NCBI GenBank assembly: GCA_019323015.1
Contig: JAHWHY010000006.1
Coordinates: 1,008-65,007 of the forward strand
Source: Candidatus Woesearchaeota archaeon
GTDB taxonomy: Archaea > Nanobdellota > Nanobdellia > Woesearchaeales > ARS49
Length of the DNA: 64,000 bases
Direction: 5' to 3'
Below, piece after piece: positions 557 through 30,352 of this stretch; the stretch's first letter is position 1, and each line of letters begins with the position of its first letter. A model generated the notes under the pieces. The model was not told the DNA's origin, ran no database searches, and saw only the letters and a list, made by a program, of their open reading frames with translations. Both the position numbers and the translations under genes were made by a program.

Positions 557-2187
<1,631 letters not shown>

Positions 2188-3424: not shown

Positions 3425-3570
3425 TGGGCCCGCTGGGACTTTCAATGACCGAAGGGAGTTGAATTCCCTCGAACACATTTGAACCCAGGACCTCTGGCTC
3501 GCTTAGACGAGTTTTGTTTAAAACGTGGCCATATAAGACCAGCGCTCTAACCAAGCTGAGCTACGGGCCC
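3425..3570 (-). tRNA. tRNA with two introns (146 nt); anticodon reads TAT, so putatively tRNA-Ile(UAU)
   Basis: Reverse complement GGGCCCGTAGCTCAGCTTGGTTAGAGCG CTGGT cuTATa[32-nt intron]a GCCAG AGGTC CTGGG TTCAAAT[39-nt intron GTG...ATTGAAAG]T CCCAG CGGGCCC A. The first intron is at the canonical 37/38 site and the second between the T-loop and the 3' T-stem. Confidence 0.65.
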
Positions 3571-4514: not shown

Positions 4515-4523
4515 AAAACTGAA

Positions 4524-4653
4524 TGGGCCCGGAGGGAATCGAACCCTCGACCCACACCTTTCTAAAGGCACTGGCCTTGGAAAGACCAGCAAAAATCGCA
4601 GATTTTTGCGCTGCCTTGTAAGGGTGTTGTCATAGCCGCTAGACCACGGGCCC
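4524..4653 (-). tRNA. tRNA-Val (anticodon TAC) with a ~58-nt canonical-position intron
   Basis: Reverse complement GGGCCCGTGGTCTAGCGGCTATGACA ACACC cuTACa[intron]a GGTGT GGGTC GAGGGTTCGATTCCCTC CGGGCCC A. Confidence 0.8.
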
Positions 4654-4759
4654 ATAAGTGTGAGGAAATATTATTGGTTTAAAAGGTTTACGCTATCTCG
4701 CGAATATAGAATGCAAATCGTTTTCGCGCTTGCAGCCTTGTGCTGCACTTGTTTGGATT

Positions 4760-19036: not shown

Positions 19037-19093
19037 TTTCCCCCAATACAGTAATGATTACTTGTCCTTTAAAAAGGTATCGATATAAAAGCA

Positions 19094-19197
19094 TGGACTG
19101 GGCGGGACTTTCAATAAAGGGCTTGAAGCCCCTCACATTTGAACCCGCAGCCTCTCCGCTGCCAGCGGAGCGTTCTACCAGGTTGAACTACCAGCCC
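19094..19197 (-). tRNA. tRNA-Ala (anticodon GGC) with a 29-nt intron between the T-loop and the 3' T-stem
   Basis: Reverse complement GGGCTGG TAGTTCAACCTGGTAGAAC G CTCCG cuGGCag CGGAG AGGCT GCGGG TTCAAAT[GTGAGGGGCTTCAAGCCCTTTATTGAAAG]T CCCGC CCAGTCC A. Carries the G3:U70 Ala identity pair. Confidence 0.75.
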
Positions 19198-19251
19198 ACA
19201 GGTCAAAAATACCGAATTTTATTTATAAAACCTCTGCTTTTAGGCCTAAAT

Positions 19252-19671
19252 ATGAAGATAGAGGAAAGCAGGATACTGTACCAGCCAAGGGTCATCTGGC
19301 TGATCATCAGCGAGTGGATGGATACTCTTGCGATATTCATGAATTCAAGAGTGTATATGCTTGTTGACAAGAACAAGCTTATTTCTATTTGTTGCATCAA
19401 GAATTTTGGCAAGGTTAAAGAGTTGGGTGTTGTCATAACAACAAAAAAGTTCAGGAAAAAAGGTTATATGGCAAAGCTGTTGAATCAGGTGCTTAAGTAT
19501 TATGGCACGCTTTATTTGATTTGTCTGAAACAGCTTGAGAATTATTACAAAAAATTTGGTTTTAAGACAATAAGAAAAGCTCCTTGGCCATTGCGAATTC
19601 GTGCAGGCCCATATAATTTCTTTGCAAACTTGTTTGGTTGGGAAAAAATTGTTTACATGAAGAGAAAATAG
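19252..19671 (+). CDS. GNAT-family N-acetyltransferase (putative)
   Basis: Start re-called at MKIEESR because the upstream part of the ORF overlaps the tRNA. ~139 aa with a GNAT-like KKGYMAKLLNQ / YYKKFGF core. Confidence 0.45.
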   Translation: MKIEESRILYQPRVIWLIISEWMDTLAIFMNSRVYMLVDKNKLISICCIKNFGKVKELGVVITTKKFRKKGYMAKLLNQVLKYYGTLYLICLKQLENYYKKFGFKTIRKAPWPLRIRAGPYNFFANLFGWEKIVYMKRK

Positions 19672-27221: not shown

Positions 27222-28496
27222 CTATTCCCAAATAATCTCCAGAAAGTGTGTTGCACAACTAATGCAGGGATCATATGCTCTTATCAGTTTCTCTATCTCT
27301 AATTGTATTTCTTCTTTTGGTTTGTCTAGTAATGAAGGCAAGAAGTTCTTTATGTCTTCTTCTAGGTTTGGGAGGTTTTGTGTAGTGGGTGTTGTTATGT
27401 TAATGAAGTTAGTAAAGCCTTTGTTGTCATATTTATACTTGTGAAATACAATTCCTCTTGGTGCTTCGTTTGCTCCTATGCCGGTTCCTGCTTTTGGCTT
27501 TATCTCAATAGGTTTTTCTGGCTTAAAGTCATTTCCTTCAATTAATTCTATTGCTTTCTTGAGTCCTTCATATATTTCTACTGCTTGTGCTGGGTTGTTC
27601 ATGAAGGGGTTGTGTTTTCTTGGGATTATGCATCTGCACATATCTTTTGATTCTTTTGATAATTGATTATAATTGTTCAGTATTCTTGACCATGCTCCTA
27701 CCATGTAGCTTCCTTCTTTTGTTTTTGCAAACTCTGCTGTTGAGCCTTGCTTAAAGAATTCCTTGAAATACTGTTCATAGTCTGTTACTGCTATGCATTC
27801 TTTGCCCCCGCTGCATGTTATCTGGTCTTCTGGGCAGAAAAAGCAGTTTTTCTTGGCCTTTAGTGCATAGTGTTTTGTTTCGCGTGTAAAGTCTGGGTAT
27901 TCCAGCCCGCAGAACAGGTGTGCTGTTTTTTCTGCGTCTGCAAGGCTTGCTTTTGCGCTTTTTAGCAGGCTTTTGAATTCTTCTGGTTTTGGTATTGCTA
28001 CAAAACCGCCGGGCGTTAAAGTAAAAGGGTGGATGTCTCTTCCTCCTATCACTCTTACTATGTCATTGGCTGTTTGTTTTATTTTTAGTGCTGTTTTTAC
28101 CTTATCTGGATGTTTTTGTGCCATCTGCACTGCGTTTGGAAAACCGACATAATCTGGCAGTGTCAAGAAATAAAGATGCAGGACATGGCTCTGTATTGTT
28201 CCGCCGATGTTGAGTATCTCTCTTAATAGTTCTGTTTGTTCAGTTACTTGCACGCCCATTGCTTTTTCAGTTGCTTTTACAGAAGTCAGGCCATGAACCG
28301 GGGAGCATATTCCGCAGATACGGGAAGCAATATGATTTACGTCATTGTATTTTTTGTCTTTTAGTAAGCCTTCAAAGTATCTTGAGCCCTCAAATATGCT
28401 TAAGTCTACTTTTTTGATTTCTCCTTTGTCTACCTTGATGTGGAGTTTTGCATGTCCTTCTATTTTTGTTATGTGGTTAAGGTTTATTTTTGCCAT
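27222..28496 (-). CDS. [NiFe] hydrogenase large subunit (group 3-like, 424 aa)
   Basis: N-terminal L1 motif RICGICSPVH and C-terminal L2 motif DPCISCATH. Confidence 0.8.
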   Translation of the reverse strand: MAKINLNHITKIEGHAKLHIKVDKGEIKKVDLSIFEGSRYFEGLLKDKKYNDVNHIASRICGICSPVHGLTSVKATEKAMGVQVTEQTELLREILNIGGTIQSHVLHLYFLTLPDYVGFPNAVQMAQKHPDKVKTALKIKQTANDIVRVIGGRDIHPFTLTPGGFVAIPKPEEFKSLLKSAKASLADAEKTAHLFCGLEYPDFTRETKHYALKAKKNCFFCPEDQITCSGGKECIAVTDYEQYFKEFFKQGSTAEFAKTKEGSYMVGAWSRILNNYNQLSKESKDMCRCIIPRKHNPFMNNPAQAVEIYEGLKKAIELIEGNDFKPEKPIEIKPKAGTGIGANEAPRGIVFHKYKYDNKGFTNFINITTPTTQNLPNLEEDIKNFLPSLLDKPKEEIQLEIEKLIRAYDPCISCATHFLEIIWE

Positions 28497-29232
28497 TTTT
28501 TTCTATGTTTTGGAACATGTTCAGTCTTTCCATTATTTCTTTTTCATCAAGACCAAATGATTTAAACAGTTTTATTTCAGCTTCATAGTCTGTTTTTGGT
28601 CTTGGTCCTCTGCATCCCATGCATTCAAAGTTTGCTTTTGTGCATATTGCGTCGCATCCTCCGTGTGTTACTGGTCCTAAACAGATTTTTTTCTGTCTTA
28701 AGAAGCATTCTGGTGTGCCTTGTCTTGGGCATTGTGCGCATACAGGGCCTTCAAATTCTTTCATTATTTTGCCTTTCAGGAATTGGTTAAGGAAATTCAT
28801 GAATTCTTCTTTTATGATTGGGCAGCCGTACATGTAATAGTCTACTTTTACATATTCTCCTATTCCTGCTGCTGGTATTGAGTCTTTGAGCATTCTTTGG
28901 TTGTAGACGTATTTCTCAAGCTCTTTGTTTTCCACAAAGTTTCGCATTGCTGGTACTCCTCCGTGGCACGCGCATGCCCCTAGTGCAACAAGAGTCTTGC
29001 TTTTCTTTCGTATTTCTTTTAGTTTCTGTACTTCTTTTTTTGTGGTTATTGCTCCTTCTACAAACATCAGGTCAAATTTTGCTTTTCTGTTCTTTTCTTT
29101 CAGAAGATGGAAGTATTGGACATCAAACTTCTTGAAGATGTCCATTAGTTTCTCAATGAAAAGTATTGTGAACTGGCATCCCTGGTCGCATGTAAATGAT
29201 ACAATGCCTAGTACTGGCTTTTTGTCACCCAT
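28477..29232 (-). CDS. [NiFe] hydrogenase small subunit (group 3 delta-like, 251 aa)
   Basis: FTCDQGCQ and GACACHGG Fe-S cysteine motifs plus C-terminal CxxC clusters. 20-nt overlap with the large subunit gene. Confidence 0.75.
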   Translation of the reverse strand: MGDKKPVLGIVSFTCDQGCQFTILFIEKLMDIFKKFDVQYFHLLKEKNRKAKFDLMFVEGAITTKKEVQKLKEIRKKSKTLVALGACACHGGVPAMRNFVENKELEKYVYNQRMLKDSIPAAGIGEYVKVDYYMYGCPIIKEEFMNFLNQFLKGKIMKEFEGPVCAQCPRQGTPECFLRQKKICLGPVTHGGCDAICTKANFECMGCRGPRPKTDYEAEIKLFKSFGLDEKEIMERLNMFQNIEKNGKNKP

Positions 29233-29276
29233 TTTAATTAAGAAAAAAGAAAAAGAGTATATTAACTTTTTGATTG
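29229..29276. repeat. 47-bp direct repeat copy 1 (promoter/5'UTR, ending in the start codon of 28477-29232)
   Basis: CCCATTTTAaTTAAGAAAAAAGAAAAAGAGTATATTAACTTTTTGATT, identical except 1 nt to 30350-30397. Confidence 0.8.
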
Positions 29277-29281
29277 TTCAG

Positions 29282-29396
29282 CGCCGGAGGCGGGAGTTTC
29301 ATCACTCCCACCTAAGTGAATTTGAACCCGCAAGATGCAGGGTTTGCATCACCTGATCCTAAGTCAGGCTCCTTACCTGATTCGGACCACTCCGGC
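29282..29396 (-). tRNA. tRNA-Leu (anticodon TAG), type II, with a ~25-nt T-loop/T-stem intron
   Basis: Reverse complement GCCGGAG TG GTCCGAATCAGGTAAGGAG CCTGA cuTAGga TCAGG TGATGCAAACCCTGCATCT TGCGGG TTCAAAT[TCACTTAGGTGGGAGTGATGAAACT]CCCGC CTCCGGC G. Confidence 0.7.
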
Positions 29397-29445
29397 TTTG
29401 CTGAAATTCCACAAAGCTTATATACTTCGTGAACATAATTGTTTA

Positions 29446-29497
29446 TGCAGGGTTAACATCACCTGGTCTAAGTCTGGCGCCTTGCCAGATTCGGCCA
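29446..29497 (-). pseudogene. degenerate partial tRNA-Leu-like copy (D-loop to variable-arm region only)
   Basis: CCGAATCTGGCAAGGCGCCAGACTTAGACCAGGTGATGTTAACCCTGCA aligns to the intact tRNA-Leu segment CCGAATCAGGTAAGGAGCCTGACTTAGGATCAGGTGATGCAAACCCTGCA. It lacks an acceptor and T-arm, and its anticodon stem is no longer complementary. Confidence 0.5.
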
Positions 29498-29611
29498 TTT
29501 CTTTTTTTTATACTGATTTTATTCTTTATATGTTTTCATAAGAAAAAGCAGTAATATTTTCAAAAGAATCAGAAGATTTTTTGAAGAAGAAATTATATTT
29601 GCGGTTTTGAT

Positions 29612-30352
29612 TTAATTATATGTATTTTCTTTAGAAATCCTGTAATAATCATATTTGATGCTGCAATTTGTGAAGTTTTTTGCAATCTGGTTCATTCCTT
29701 CTGAATCAAGGTCTTCTGCTTCTGCAGGCCTTATGTTATCTGCTGTTATTTTTAGTGTATTGCCTTCTTTTTTAATATCAAGGGTCCAGGCATGCATTTT
29801 GTGTGCAGAGAATGAGTTGCAAGCCAGGAAAGGGTACTTTTCAACAGCAATTCCTTCAGTTGTGTATGGCTCCACTTCCAGTGACCAAATATATCCTCTG
29901 AAATTGCCTCCTGCTCCAGTATGCTTTATAGAATATGTGTAGGTGTGGTTGATATGTTTCCAAAAGTATATGCTTTTGTCTATATTTTCGCAGATTTTTT
30001 TGTCTTTGAACAGTTTTGTCTTAAGAATTGCTTCTGTTATGATGCTTGGCGGCAGGTCTTTGAACAATACTTCATTAAAGCATCCTTGTTTGAATTCTTT
30101 TTCAAGTTTTTCTGTTTCTTTTTTAGAAAAGCCCAATTCATTTAGAACAGCATAAGGCTCATCAAATAATTTTTTCCCTGTAGAATCATAGCATTTTGTG
30201 TGTGTCTTGCCATCCCAAGTATTAAAAGCAGAGTTGCAGGCGAAAATTGCTTCTTTAATCCCTTCATATTCGCTCTCTTGCTGTTCTTTGGCAGTGCATC
30301 CTGCCAGTACTGCTGCTAAGCATATGAATAATATTAAATATCTTGCCCCCAT
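29612..30352 (-). CDS. secreted lipoprotein, hypothetical (246 aa)
   Basis: Signal peptide plus LAGC lipobox; preceded by the 47-bp repeat copy 2. Confidence 0.6.
   Translation of the reverse strand: MGARYLILFICLAAVLAGCTAKEQQESEYEGIKEAIFACNSAFNTWDGKTHTKCYDSTGKKLFDEPYAVLNELGFSKKETEKLEKEFKQGCFNEVLFKDLPPSIITEAILKTKLFKDKKICENIDKSIYFWKHINHTYTYSIKHTGAGGNFRGYIWSLEVEPYTTEGIAVEKYPFLACNSFSAHKMHAWTLDIKKEGNTLKITADNIRPAEAEDLDSEGMNQIAKNFTNCSIKYDYYRISKENTYN

What the first reader, a model, noticed from the sequence alone, without database searches (positions are those of the whole stretch)
19094..19197. A recurring class of T-loop introns with conserved ends in three different tRNAs
tRNA-Ala(GGC) here, the double-intron tRNA at 3425-3570 and tRNA-Leu(TAG) at 29282-29396 all carry an insertion at exactly the same place, after T-loop TTCAAAT and before the 3' T-stem. 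Two of the inserts share their termini. One is GTGAGGGGCTTCAAGCCCTTTATTGAAAG and another is GTGTTCGAGGGAATTCAACTCCCTTCGGTCATTGAAAG. In both the 3' end ATTGAA can pair with the T-loop TTCAAT to form a helix around the splice sites. The third ends ...GATGAAACT. Conserved intron ends at a non-canonical site suggest either a mobile intron family or a shared recognition requirement of the endonuclease.
Basis: seen in the sequence. Interest (0 to 1): 0.55.

Follow-up and report, generated by a model that had tools for sequence, protein, structure and literature searches.

The report
T-loop (59/60) spliced introns in tRNAs
Three tRNA genes of an uncultured Woesearchaeota (DPANN) archaeon are each interrupted in the T-loop by a short protein-spliced intron; this kind of intron is already known, and the shared ends are mostly what the splicing enzyme's recognition structure forces.

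Summary
tRNA-Ala(GGC) 19094-19197, tRNA-Ile(UAU) 3425-3570 and tRNA-Leu(UAG) 29282-29396, all on the minus strand, carry inserts of 30, 39 and 25 nt between nucleotides 59 and 60.

Each insert forms a strict bulge-helix-bulge (BHB) motif:
- The T-stem is the outer helix.
- T-loop U54-A57 pairs with the intron's UGAA as the 4-bp central helix.
- A58-A59|U and A-G/C|U60 are the two 3-nt bulges.
- An intron hairpin is the inner helix.

Excision restores 7-nt T-loops and full cloverleafs.

The conserved intron ends are therefore forced by BHB geometry plus the invariant T-loop. In other genomes the intron end co-varies with the T-loop (CUCG with CGAG).

Beyond that constraint, the Ala and Ile introns are significantly alike and resemble a Woesearchaeota intron family found in several different tRNAs. 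The Leu intron is unrelated.

The window is a Woesearchaeota contig. Introns at 59/60 are documented, and one was cleaved in vitro by the ARMAN-2 endonuclease. Intron families shared between tRNAs are known in Thermoproteales. Disrupted tRNAs in DPANN are published.

Verdict: new members of a known kind, with modest interest. Splicing itself and the endonuclease were not testable here.

The parts
19094..19197 (-). tRNA-Ala(GGC) gene. The 5' exon is 19138-19197 (nt 1-59). The 3' exon is 19094-19107 (nt 60-73). It has G3.U70 and A73, and no encoded CCA.
   Evidence: Sequence read. BHB splice plus ARAGORN. Orthologues from relatives (L122, L124) have 1 substitution in 74 exon nt.
19108..19137 (-). 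30-nt BHB intron at position 59/60 of tRNA-Ala(GGC). The central-helix strand TGAA is at 19110-19113 and pairs with T54-A57 at 19140-19143. The inner helix is 9-10 bp.
   Evidence: Two one-sided G-C/G.U changes keep the inner helix paired in the L124 orthologue.
3425..3570 (-). tRNA-Ile(UAU) gene with two introns. Exons are 3532-3570, 3478-3499 and 3425-3438.
   Evidence: The same two-intron layout occurs in L026 and L073, which are Nanoarchaeota/Woesearchaeota MAGs.
3500..3531 (-). 32-nt canonical 37/38 intron of tRNA-Ile(UAU). It is a strict BHB: C32-A35 (CTTA) pairs with TAAG, and the bulges are TA|T and CG|A.
   Evidence: ARAGORN intron call. The pairing was read from the sequence.
3439..3477 (-). 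39-nt BHB intron at 59/60 of tRNA-Ile(UAU). TGAA at 3441-3444 pairs with T54-A57 at 3480-3483.
   Evidence: Similar to the Ala intron beyond the forced ends.
29282..29396 (-). tRNA-Leu(UAG) gene, class II with a long variable arm and G73. The 5' exon is 29321-29396. The 3' exon is 29282-29295.
29296..29320 (-). 25-nt BHB intron at 59/60 of tRNA-Leu(UAG). TGAA at 29298-29301 pairs with T54-A57 at 29323-29326. The inner helix is TCACT(T)/(G)AGTGA.
   Evidence: No similarity to the other two introns outside the forced positions.

Best explanation

The structure in the precursor can be read from the sequence:
- The 5-bp T-stem is the outer helix.
- T-loop nucleotides U54-U55-C56-A57 pair with the UGAA that sits 2 nt before the intron's 3' end. 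This is the 4-bp central helix.
- A58-A59 plus the first intron base form the 5' 3-nt bulge.
- The last two intron bases plus U60 form the 3' 3-nt bulge.
- The rest of the intron folds into a hairpin, the inner helix.

This is the exact structural twin of a canonical 37/38 intron, moved from the anticodon arm to the T-arm.

The processing is inferred. The splicing endonuclease EndA cuts in both bulges, after A59 and before U60. RtcB-type ligase then joins the exons and restores the 7-nt T-loop UUCAAAU. In tRNA-Ile(UAU) the canonical intron is removed independently.

The shared intron ends (5' U, 3' UGAA plus 2 nt) are forced. Positions 54-57 are nearly invariant in all tRNAs, so any 59/60 intron must end this way.

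On top of that constraint, the Ala and Ile introns probably share ancestry. They look like copies of one intron in two different tRNA genes, related to a loose intron family seen at 59/60 in several tRNAs of other Woesearchaeota. The Leu intron is an unrelated member of the same structural class.
For: 1. The pattern occurs 3 times against 0.00 expected.
2. All three inserts are strict 3-4-3 BHBs, with an outer helix of 5 bp and inner helices of 3-10 bp.
3. Excision gives complete cloverleafs with the expected identity features.
4. The orthologous tRNA-Ala(GGC) in relatives (L122, L124) keeps the exons (1 change in 74 nt), the intron ends and the helix. The intron apex and the gene flanks diverge.
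5. tRNA-Ile(UAU) in two other Woesearchaeota/Nanoarchaeota MAGs has both introns at the same sites with unrelated interiors.
6. In loci not selected for it, the intron 3' end co-varies with T-loop 54-57: CTCG with CGAG, TTCG with TGAA (G.U), TTCA with TGGA.
7. Among 119 genome hits, the 96 with a full T-stem come almost only from archaeal MAGs, and most resolve to tRNAs. 49 of those 96 have a strict inner helix of at least 3 bp, against 3 of the 23 hits without a T-stem, which are mostly from bacterial genomes.
8. From the literature: a 59/60 intron is cleaved in vitro by the ARMAN-2 endonuclease (PMC3239211). DPANN EndA with the L3 loop is associated with disrupted tRNAs, and that survey included a Woesearchaeota genome (PMC5829648).
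9. Ala/Ile paralogy: with the forced ends removed, the pair ranks 28 of 4851 pairs of real 59/60 introns, and 0 of 5000 shuffles reach its score. The next-best matches of the Ile intron are members of the Woesearchaeota TATC...GATTTGAAAG family.
Against: - No RNA data were available, so splicing is inferred and not shown.
- No EndA or RtcB gene lies in the window. The enzyme type of this organism is unknown.
- BHB-like motifs alone are not rare. There are 149 strict ones in the window against 116-159 in shuffles. The argument rests on their exact register inside tRNAs.
- The Ala/Ile similarity could be inflated by shared hairpin constraints and base composition.
- The shared apical TTCAA is not kept in the Ala orthologue of relatives.
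- Only 64 kb of the genome was available for a census.
Confidence: 0.9

Rival explanations
1. The shared termini are due to common descent. On this view one mobile intron family has copied itself into the T-loops of all three tRNA genes, and the ends are conserved because they are the element's own ends.
For: - The Ala and Ile introns are similar beyond the forced positions.
- A recognisable Woesearchaeota family (TATC...GATTTGAAAG) sits at 59/60 in Ala(GGC), Glu(CUC), Phe(GAA) and Cys(GCA) genes of different MAGs.
- There is precedent in Thermoproteales (Fujishima 2010, as cited in PMC4090602 and PMC4033280).
Against: - The Leu intron shares only the BHB-forced bases, although its T-arm is identical to that of Ala.
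- Unrelated 59/60 introns from many archaeal phyla have the same ends, and the ends co-vary with the T-loop.
- A metagenome scan for the TGTG...YATTGAAAG termini found only two Ala orthologues and one non-tRNA hit.
- A viral-contig scan found no carriers.

This reading therefore explains at most two of the three introns, and it does not explain the ends themselves.
Confidence: 0.3
2. The inserts are not removed. They would be expansions of the T-loop or an extra arm kept in the mature tRNA, or else these loci are tRNA pseudogenes.
For: Standard tRNA finders do not call these genes. No RNA evidence for splicing was available.
Against: - All three inserts form a strict BHB in exactly the register that restores a 7-nt T-loop.
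- While the insert is present, nucleotides 54-57 are sequestered in the central helix, so the T-loop could not form.
- Exons are under purifying selection while the intron apex and the flanks drift.
- In vitro cleavage of a 59/60 intron is published (PMC3239211).
Confidence: 0.04
3. The inserts are scars of integrative elements, such as att-site remnants or partial T-arm duplications left in the 3' part of tRNA genes.
For: - The hairpins of the Ala and Ile introns look T-arm-like (GGGGCTTCAAGCCC and GGGAATTCAACTCCC).
- Mobile elements are known to integrate in tRNA 3' halves, and integration has been proposed as a source of introns (PMC3293823).
Against: - There is no direct repeat of any 3' exon, T-arm or intron elsewhere in the window.
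- No integrase was found among the ORFs scanned.
- The T-arm-like apex is not conserved in the Ala orthologue.
- The inserts are only 25-39 nt long.
Confidence: 0.03

Closest known systems
[quoted passage not shown]
   Same: Same splice position in the T-loop, same DPANN superphylum, and the same BHB logic. tRNA-Ile(UAU) with a canonical intron is also present there. Cleavage of the 59/60 intron was shown in vitro.
   Different: - The ARMAN-2 Cys intron is 13 nt with a relaxed hBH motif. The three here are 25-39 nt with strict hBHBh' motifs.
- The ARMAN-2 enzyme is the three-unit epsilon2 EndA. The enzyme of this Woesearchaeote is unknown. The literature suggests alpha4 with an L3 loop for such lineages (PMC5829648).
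Non-canonical and multiple tRNA introns of Thermoproteales, with 'intron transposition' (Sugahara 2008 and Fujishima 2010, as summarised in PMC4033280 and PMC4090602)
   Same: - BHB introns outside 37/38 and several introns per tRNA.
- Similar intron sequences in different isoacceptors, as with Ala/Ile here and the Woesearchaeota TATC family.
   Different: - A different superphylum (TACK versus DPANN) and a different endonuclease lineage.
- The similarity here is modest and limited to one insertion site.
- The scale within this genome is unknown.
Canonical archaeal 37/38 BHB intron
   Same: Identical geometry: a 5-bp stem, a 4-bp helix made from loop positions 1-4 and the intron 3' end, cuts after loop position 6 and before position 7, and an inner hairpin.
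   Different: - It is hosted by the T-arm instead of the anticodon arm.
- T-loop 54-57 is invariant, so the intron 3' end has a fixed sequence (YGAA). For 37/38 introns the end varies with the anticodon.
- The T-loop/D-loop tertiary contacts cannot form before splicing.
Intron-rich tRNA sets of Asgard Atabeyarchaeia and Freyarchaeia (PMC11291895)
   Same: Many non-canonical and multiple tRNA introns in uncultured archaea. A 59/60 intron was found here in an Atabeyarchaeum genome as well (L117).
   Different: A different lineage. In those genomes 92-95% of tRNAs have introns, whereas 5 of 9 tRNAs in this window do.

Membership tests
Archaeal BHB (EndA-spliced) tRNA intron at position 59/60 | Two 3-nt bulges on opposite strands, separated by a 4-bp helix, at the exon-intron junctions | tested here: met
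   The central helix is TTCA:TGAA in all three. The bulges are AA|T and AG|T (Ala, Ile) or AC|T (Leu)..
Archaeal BHB (EndA-spliced) tRNA intron at position 59/60 | Flanking helices on both sides (strict hBHBh') | tested here: met
   The outer helix is the 5-bp T-stem. The inner helix is 10 bp (Ala), 3 bp plus a continuing hairpin (Ile) and 6 bp (Leu)..
Archaeal BHB (EndA-spliced) tRNA intron at position 59/60 | Excision at the bulges restores a standard tRNA with a 7-nt T-loop, with the splice between nt 59 and 60 | tested here: met
   ARAGORN draws cloverleafs for Ala(GGC), Ile(UAU) and Leu(UAG) after excision. The T-loop is TTCAAAT.
Archaeal BHB (EndA-spliced) tRNA intron at position 59/60 | Exons conserved and intron interior free to vary among orthologues, with the BHB kept | tested here: met
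   Ala orthologues L122 and L124. Ile orthologues L026 and L073. No Leu orthologue was obtained.
Archaeal BHB (EndA-spliced) tRNA intron at position 59/60 | The genome encodes the splicing endonuclease EndA and an RtcB-type ligase | not testable with these tools
   Neither is among the 50 window ORFs scanned with Pfam. The rest of the genome (GCA_019323035.1) could not be reached.
Archaeal BHB (EndA-spliced) tRNA intron at position 59/60 | Spliced mature tRNA and excised intron observed in RNA | not testable with these tools
   No transcript data were available.
Paralogous ('transposed') tRNA intron family, Thermoproteales type | Introns in non-orthologous tRNAs of one genome are similar beyond the BHB-forced bases | tested here: inconclusive
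   Met for Ala versus Ile: rank 28 of 4851, and 0 of 5000 shuffles reach the score. Not met for Leu against either (ranks 3887 and 4310 of 4851).
Paralogous ('transposed') tRNA intron family, Thermoproteales type | Many members across the genome and across related genomes, in different isoacceptors | tested here: inconclusive
   A loose Woesearchaeota family occurs in Ala, Glu, Phe and Cys genes of other MAGs. Only 64 kb of this genome was seen, and the metagenome scan for the exact termini gave only Ala orthologues.
Self-splicing group I or group II intron | A catalytic RNA core of hundreds of nucleotides, recognisable by Rfam models | tested here: not met
   The inserts are 25-39 nt. There is no group I or II hit in the window even at E<=0.5.

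The most novel reading that the evidence does not exclude
In Woesearchaeota, 59/60 T-loop introns may form a sequence family that has spread between non-orthologous tRNA genes (Ala, Ile, Glu, Phe, Cys). The spread could occur by gene conversion through the near-identical T-arm flanks, or by reverse splicing.

That would be a second, independent case of tRNA-intron 'transposition' outside Thermoproteales, specialised to a single insertion site.

A related point is that 59/60 BHB introns also turned up in MAGs labelled with euryarchaeal names (Methanotrichaceae, Methanosarcinales, Thermoplasmata). A review (PMC4090602) describes Euryarchaeota as having only canonical introns. Both readings rest on MAG labels and on short-sequence similarity.
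Probability: 0.4. Interest if true: 0.45.

Novelty: new member of a known kind. Interest (0 to 1): 0.3.

Why it matters
Practical value. These essential tRNA genes are invisible to the finders run here: ARAGORN and the Rfam covariance model (tRNAscan-SE was not run). Genomes of this lineage would therefore look as if they lack tRNA-Ala(GGC), tRNA-Ile(UAU) and tRNA-Leu(UAG). Gene callers also place a spurious ORF start on the opposite strand of the Ala gene.

Conceptual value. The three introns show cleanly why all 59/60 introns look alike at their 3' end. The cause is the invariant T-loop plus BHB geometry. That gives a simple search rule, which recovered about 100 further cases from many archaeal phyla.

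If the Ala/Ile similarity and the Woesearchaeota family reflect real spreading between genes, DPANN archaea would offer a second system, besides Thermoproteales, for studying how BHB introns are gained. The basic mechanism is not new.

Tried and rejected
1. ARAGORN in its standard modes and Rfam at gathering and at E<=0.5 do not see the three genes. I therefore wrote a BHB-splice-then-ARAGORN scan.

2. RNAfold MFE structures show a 7x7 internal loop rather than the 4-bp helix with two bulges. This is usual for BHBs, so I read the motif by explicit pairing rules instead.

3. Counting strict BHB-like motifs in the window gave no enrichment over shuffles: 149 against 116-159. The motif alone is therefore not evidence. 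Its register inside tRNAs is.

4. A protein search with the shikimate-kinase-like neighbour of the tRNA-Ile cluster returned a single 933-nt contig and was useless.

5. I tried to get tRNA-Leu orthologues through the adjacent [NiFe]-hydrogenase small subunit. Four relatives have no tRNA at that place, so no Leu orthologue was obtained.

6. The metagenome scan for the TGTG...YATTGAAAG termini gave only two Ala orthologues and one non-tRNA hit. No further paralogues were found.

7. The viral-contig scan gave 5 chance hits, none of them in a tRNA.

8. A search for att-like repeats of exon or intron sequence in the window found none.

9. I considered that the T-arm-like apex (TTCAA loop) of the Ala and Ile introns has a function. 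I rejected this because the Ala orthologue in relatives has a different apex.

10. No EndA or RtcB gene is in the window. The 3-kb contig extension beyond the window holds no tRNA.

11. Marck and Grosjean 2003 and Tocchini-Valentini 2011 are not held in the library.

Full report
**1. What is there**

The window is archaeal. It holds a 16S rRNA gene, tRNA-Ala(UGC) and the start of a 23S rRNA gene. Its G+C content is 40%.

Its elongation factor 2 (61768-63942, minus strand) has best named relatives at 72-92% identity. All of them are labelled Candidatus Woesearchaeota or Nanoarchaeota. The sequence is identical, where checked, to NCBI assembly GCA_019323035.1 contig JAHWHU010000008.1, and also to a JGI metagenome contig. 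The host is therefore an uncultured DPANN archaeon of the Woesearchaeota.

All tRNA genes lie on the minus strand. ARAGORN and Rfam find six of them. None of the three genes of the finding is found, even at E<=0.5.

**2. Check of the observation**

I read the minus strand at the three places. Each has a normal acceptor stem, D-arm, anticodon arm and variable region. Then comes a 5' T-stem followed by TTCAAAT, then extra sequence, then the matching 3' T-stem and the acceptor 3' strand.

The pattern GGGTTCAAAT-N(10-40)-TGAAANTCCC matches these three places and nothing else in the window. None was expected in shuffles.

I wrote a scan with three steps:
- It lists every strict bulge-helix-bulge (BHB) candidate.
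- It removes the putative intron.
- It asks ARAGORN whether a tRNA spans the junction.

The scan returned the following, and the cloverleafs are drawn:
- tRNA-Ala(GGC), 30-nt intron at 19108-19137. It shows the G3.U70 alanine identity pair.
- tRNA-Ile(UAU), 39-nt intron at 3439-3477, plus a canonical 32-nt intron at 3500-3531.
- tRNA-Leu(UAG), 25-nt intron at 29296-29320.

The junction helix is the 4-bp TTCA:TGAA, not TTCAAT:ATTGAA.

**3. Anatomy**

In all three precursors the structure is as follows:
- The T-stem (5 bp) is the outer helix.
- U54-U55-C56-A57 pair with the UGAA that lies two bases before the intron's 3' end.
- A58-A59 plus the first intron base (U) form one 3-nt bulge.
- The last two intron bases (AG, AG, AC) plus U60 form the other bulge.
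- The remaining intron folds into a hairpin directly stacked on the central helix. The inner helix is 10, 3 (continuing after a mismatch) and 6 bp.

This is a strict hBHBh' motif. Geometrically it is a canonical 37/38 intron transplanted from the anticodon arm to the T-arm: a 5-bp stem and a 7-nt loop, with the intron after the sixth loop base.

The canonical intron of tRNA-Ile(UAU) has the same architecture. There C32-A35 (CUUA) pair with UAAG.

**4. Why the ends are alike**

Positions 54-57 are almost invariant in tRNAs. Any intron at 59/60 that is to be recognised through a BHB must therefore end in YGAA plus two bulge bases.

I tested this on data not selected for it. The loci fetched by the genome scan contained other 59/60 introns that do not fit the search pattern. 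In these the intron end follows the T-loop:
- CUCG pairs with CGAG (tRNA-Ser, L053).
- UUCG pairs with UGAA through G.U (tRNA-Val and tRNA-Gly, L022).
- UUCA pairs with UGGA (tRNA-Glu, L033).

The conserved termini are thus a recognition requirement, not a signature of one element.

BHB-like motifs as such are not enriched in the window: 149 against 116-159 in shuffles. The evidence is their exact register inside otherwise complete tRNAs.

**5. Are they functional genes with spliced introns?**

Two metagenome contigs from relatives (L122, L124) carry the orthologous tRNA-Ala(GGC):
- The exons differ at 1 of 74 positions.
- The intron ends and the inner helix are kept. Two one-sided G-C/G.U changes preserve pairing.
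- The intron apex is replaced and the gene flanks are unalignable.

tRNA-Ile(UAU) genes of two other Woesearchaeota/Nanoarchaeota MAGs (L026, L073) have both introns at the same two sites. Their exons are conserved and their intron interiors are unrelated.

This is the pattern expected of functional genes whose introns are removed. Splicing itself was not observable here. No EndA or RtcB gene lies in the window.

**6. Is there also a mobile or paralogous family?**

I stripped the forced bases and compared all pairs among 96 real 59/60 introns from the genome scan plus the three here.
- The Ala/Ile pair ranks 28th of 4851. Every higher pair is an evident orthologue or family pair. None of 5000 shuffles reaches its score.
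- The Leu intron is unrelated to both (ranks 3887 and 4310), although the Leu and Ala T-arms are identical.
- The next-best matches of the Ile intron are members of a loose Woesearchaeota family (TATC...hairpin...GATTTGAAAG). Reading the exons by eye, that family sits at 59/60 in Ala(GGC), Glu(CUC), Phe(GAA) and Cys(GCA) genes of different MAGs.

This resembles the 'intron transposition' described for Thermoproteales (Fujishima 2010, as cited in PMC4090602 and PMC4033280). The evidence here is suggestive only, for three reasons:
- The sequences are short hairpins of similar composition.
- A scan of metagenomes for the TGTG...YATTGAAAG termini found no further paralogues.
- Only 64 kb of the genome could be examined.

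There is no sign of integration scars or of viral carriage.

**7. Distribution**

I ran the same pattern over one genome per species of GTDB.
- 96 hits have a full T-stem. Apart from one labelled Chitinophagaceae (L070), they come from archaeal MAGs: Woese-, Pace-, Nano-, Micr-, Aenigm- and Nanohaloarchaeota, Thermoplasmata, Methanosarcinales/Methanotrichaceae, several Asgard groups, Bathyarchaeia, Marsarchaeota, Nitrososphaerota and Hadarchaeota. Most resolve into tRNAs after excision.
- The 23 hits without a T-stem, mostly from bacterial genomes, behave as chance matches.

So 59/60 is a common intron site across uncultured archaea.

**8. Comparison with what is known**

- 59/60 introns are described in ARMAN-2 (Micrarchaeota), where the endonuclease cut one in vitro. 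The authors state that ARMAN-2 intron locations overlap the major insertion sites of other archaea (PMC3239211).
- Non-canonical and multiple introns, and similar introns in different tRNAs, are established for Thermoproteales (PMC4033280, PMC4090602).
- Kaneta et al. surveyed DPANN genomes, including a Woesearchaeota genome. They linked alpha4 EndA carrying an L3 loop to increased tRNA gene disruption. They noted that incomplete tRNA sets point to undetected disrupted genes (PMC5829648).
- A search of the held library for Woesearchaeota together with tRNA intron found nothing specific on T-loop introns in this lineage.

**9. Verdict**

These are new members of a well-known kind: BHB introns at position 59/60.

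The shared ends are explained by endonuclease recognition plus the invariant T-loop. Two of the three introns probably also share ancestry.

Interest is modest. The points worth keeping are:
- the clear covariation rule;
- the fact that such genes escape the tRNA finders run here (ARAGORN and the Rfam model);
- the hint of an intron family spreading among Woesearchaeota tRNAs.

Noticed in passing
window 1345-1453 and 1179-1225 (minus strand, inside the 16S rRNA gene 558-2183): The 16S rRNA gene carries two inserts, of 109 and 47 nt, at universally conserved sites. One is inside GGATTAGAT|ACCC, the 806R primer site. The other is inside GACTGAA|ACTTAAAGGAATTGGCGG, the 915 region. Both have a 4-bp helix flanked by 3-nt bulges (relaxed BHB), and their removal restores the Rfam consensus. 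They are probably EndA-spliced rRNA introns, and they would defeat common 16S primers.
   Followed up: partly
window 4523-4654 and 17072-17200 (minus strand): tRNA-Val(UAC) has 57 extra nt and tRNA-Met(CAU) 54 extra nt in the anticodon loop. As single introns neither forms a strict 3-4-3 BHB. Val has a U.U mismatch in the central helix. ARAGORN plus my scan also allows nested two-intron solutions. Altogether 5 of the 9 tRNA genes in the window are interrupted.
   Followed up: partly
window 19093-19671 (plus strand): Public gene calls place a 192-aa ORF here, with a weak acetyltransferase hit. Its first ~35 codons are the reverse complement of tRNA-Ala(GGC). The start is probably over-extended because the tRNA was not annotated.
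   Followed up: no
window 3425-3570; L026 and L073: This lineage has a tRNA-Ile with a genomically encoded UAU anticodon, also seen in two other Woesearchaeota/Nanoarchaeota MAGs. This suggests AUA is read without the agmatidine (TiaS) route, as reported for ARMAN-2, which also has tRNA-Ile(UAU) (PMC3239211). Whether TiaS is absent could not be checked.
   Followed up: no
L051 and L083 (Methanotrichaceae); L016, L022, L033, L042, L047, L091, L104, L113, L115, L119 (labelled Methanosarcinales); L006, L013, L038, L043, L072 (Thermoplasmata/Thermoplasmatales); L058 (Hadarchaeota): BHB introns at 59/60 occur in MAGs labelled with euryarchaeal names. A review (PMC4090602) describes such lineages as having only canonical 37/38 introns. 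The two Methanotrichaceae MAGs share an orthologous intron; L051 resolved to tRNA-Asn(GUU), while L083 did not resolve to a tRNA. The MAG labels were not verified.
   Followed up: partly
L004, L015, L068, L069, L071, L106, L119, L054, L055: A loose Woesearchaeota family of 59/60 introns (TATC...AGG...CAAATC...CCT...GATTTGAAAG) sits in different tRNAs: Ala GGC, Glu CUC, Phe GAA and Cys GCA. The L004 tRNA-Ala(GGC) also has an insert in the D-loop.
   Followed up: partly
L009 and L086 (same Aenigmatarchaeota MAG, JACRMW01, two contigs): Nearly identical 46-nt T-loop inserts with a 12-bp inner helix lie at two loci of one genome. ARAGORN did not resolve the host tRNAs, which may carry further introns.
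   Followed up: no
window 27222-30352; L125-L128: tRNA-Leu(UAG) lies 50 nt upstream of a [NiFe]-hydrogenase small/large subunit pair. In four relatives (71-91% identical small subunit) there is no tRNA at that place. In two of them (L126, L127) a 2-thiouracil-desulfurase-like gene takes the place of the window's 246-aa ORF, which has no Pfam hit; the other two have different upstream genes. This is a local rearrangement next to the tRNA.
   Followed up: partly
window 29282: tRNA-Leu(UAG) has G at discriminator position 73. From my own knowledge, not checked here, archaeal tRNA-Leu usually has A73. None of the three tRNAs encodes CCA.
   Followed up: no
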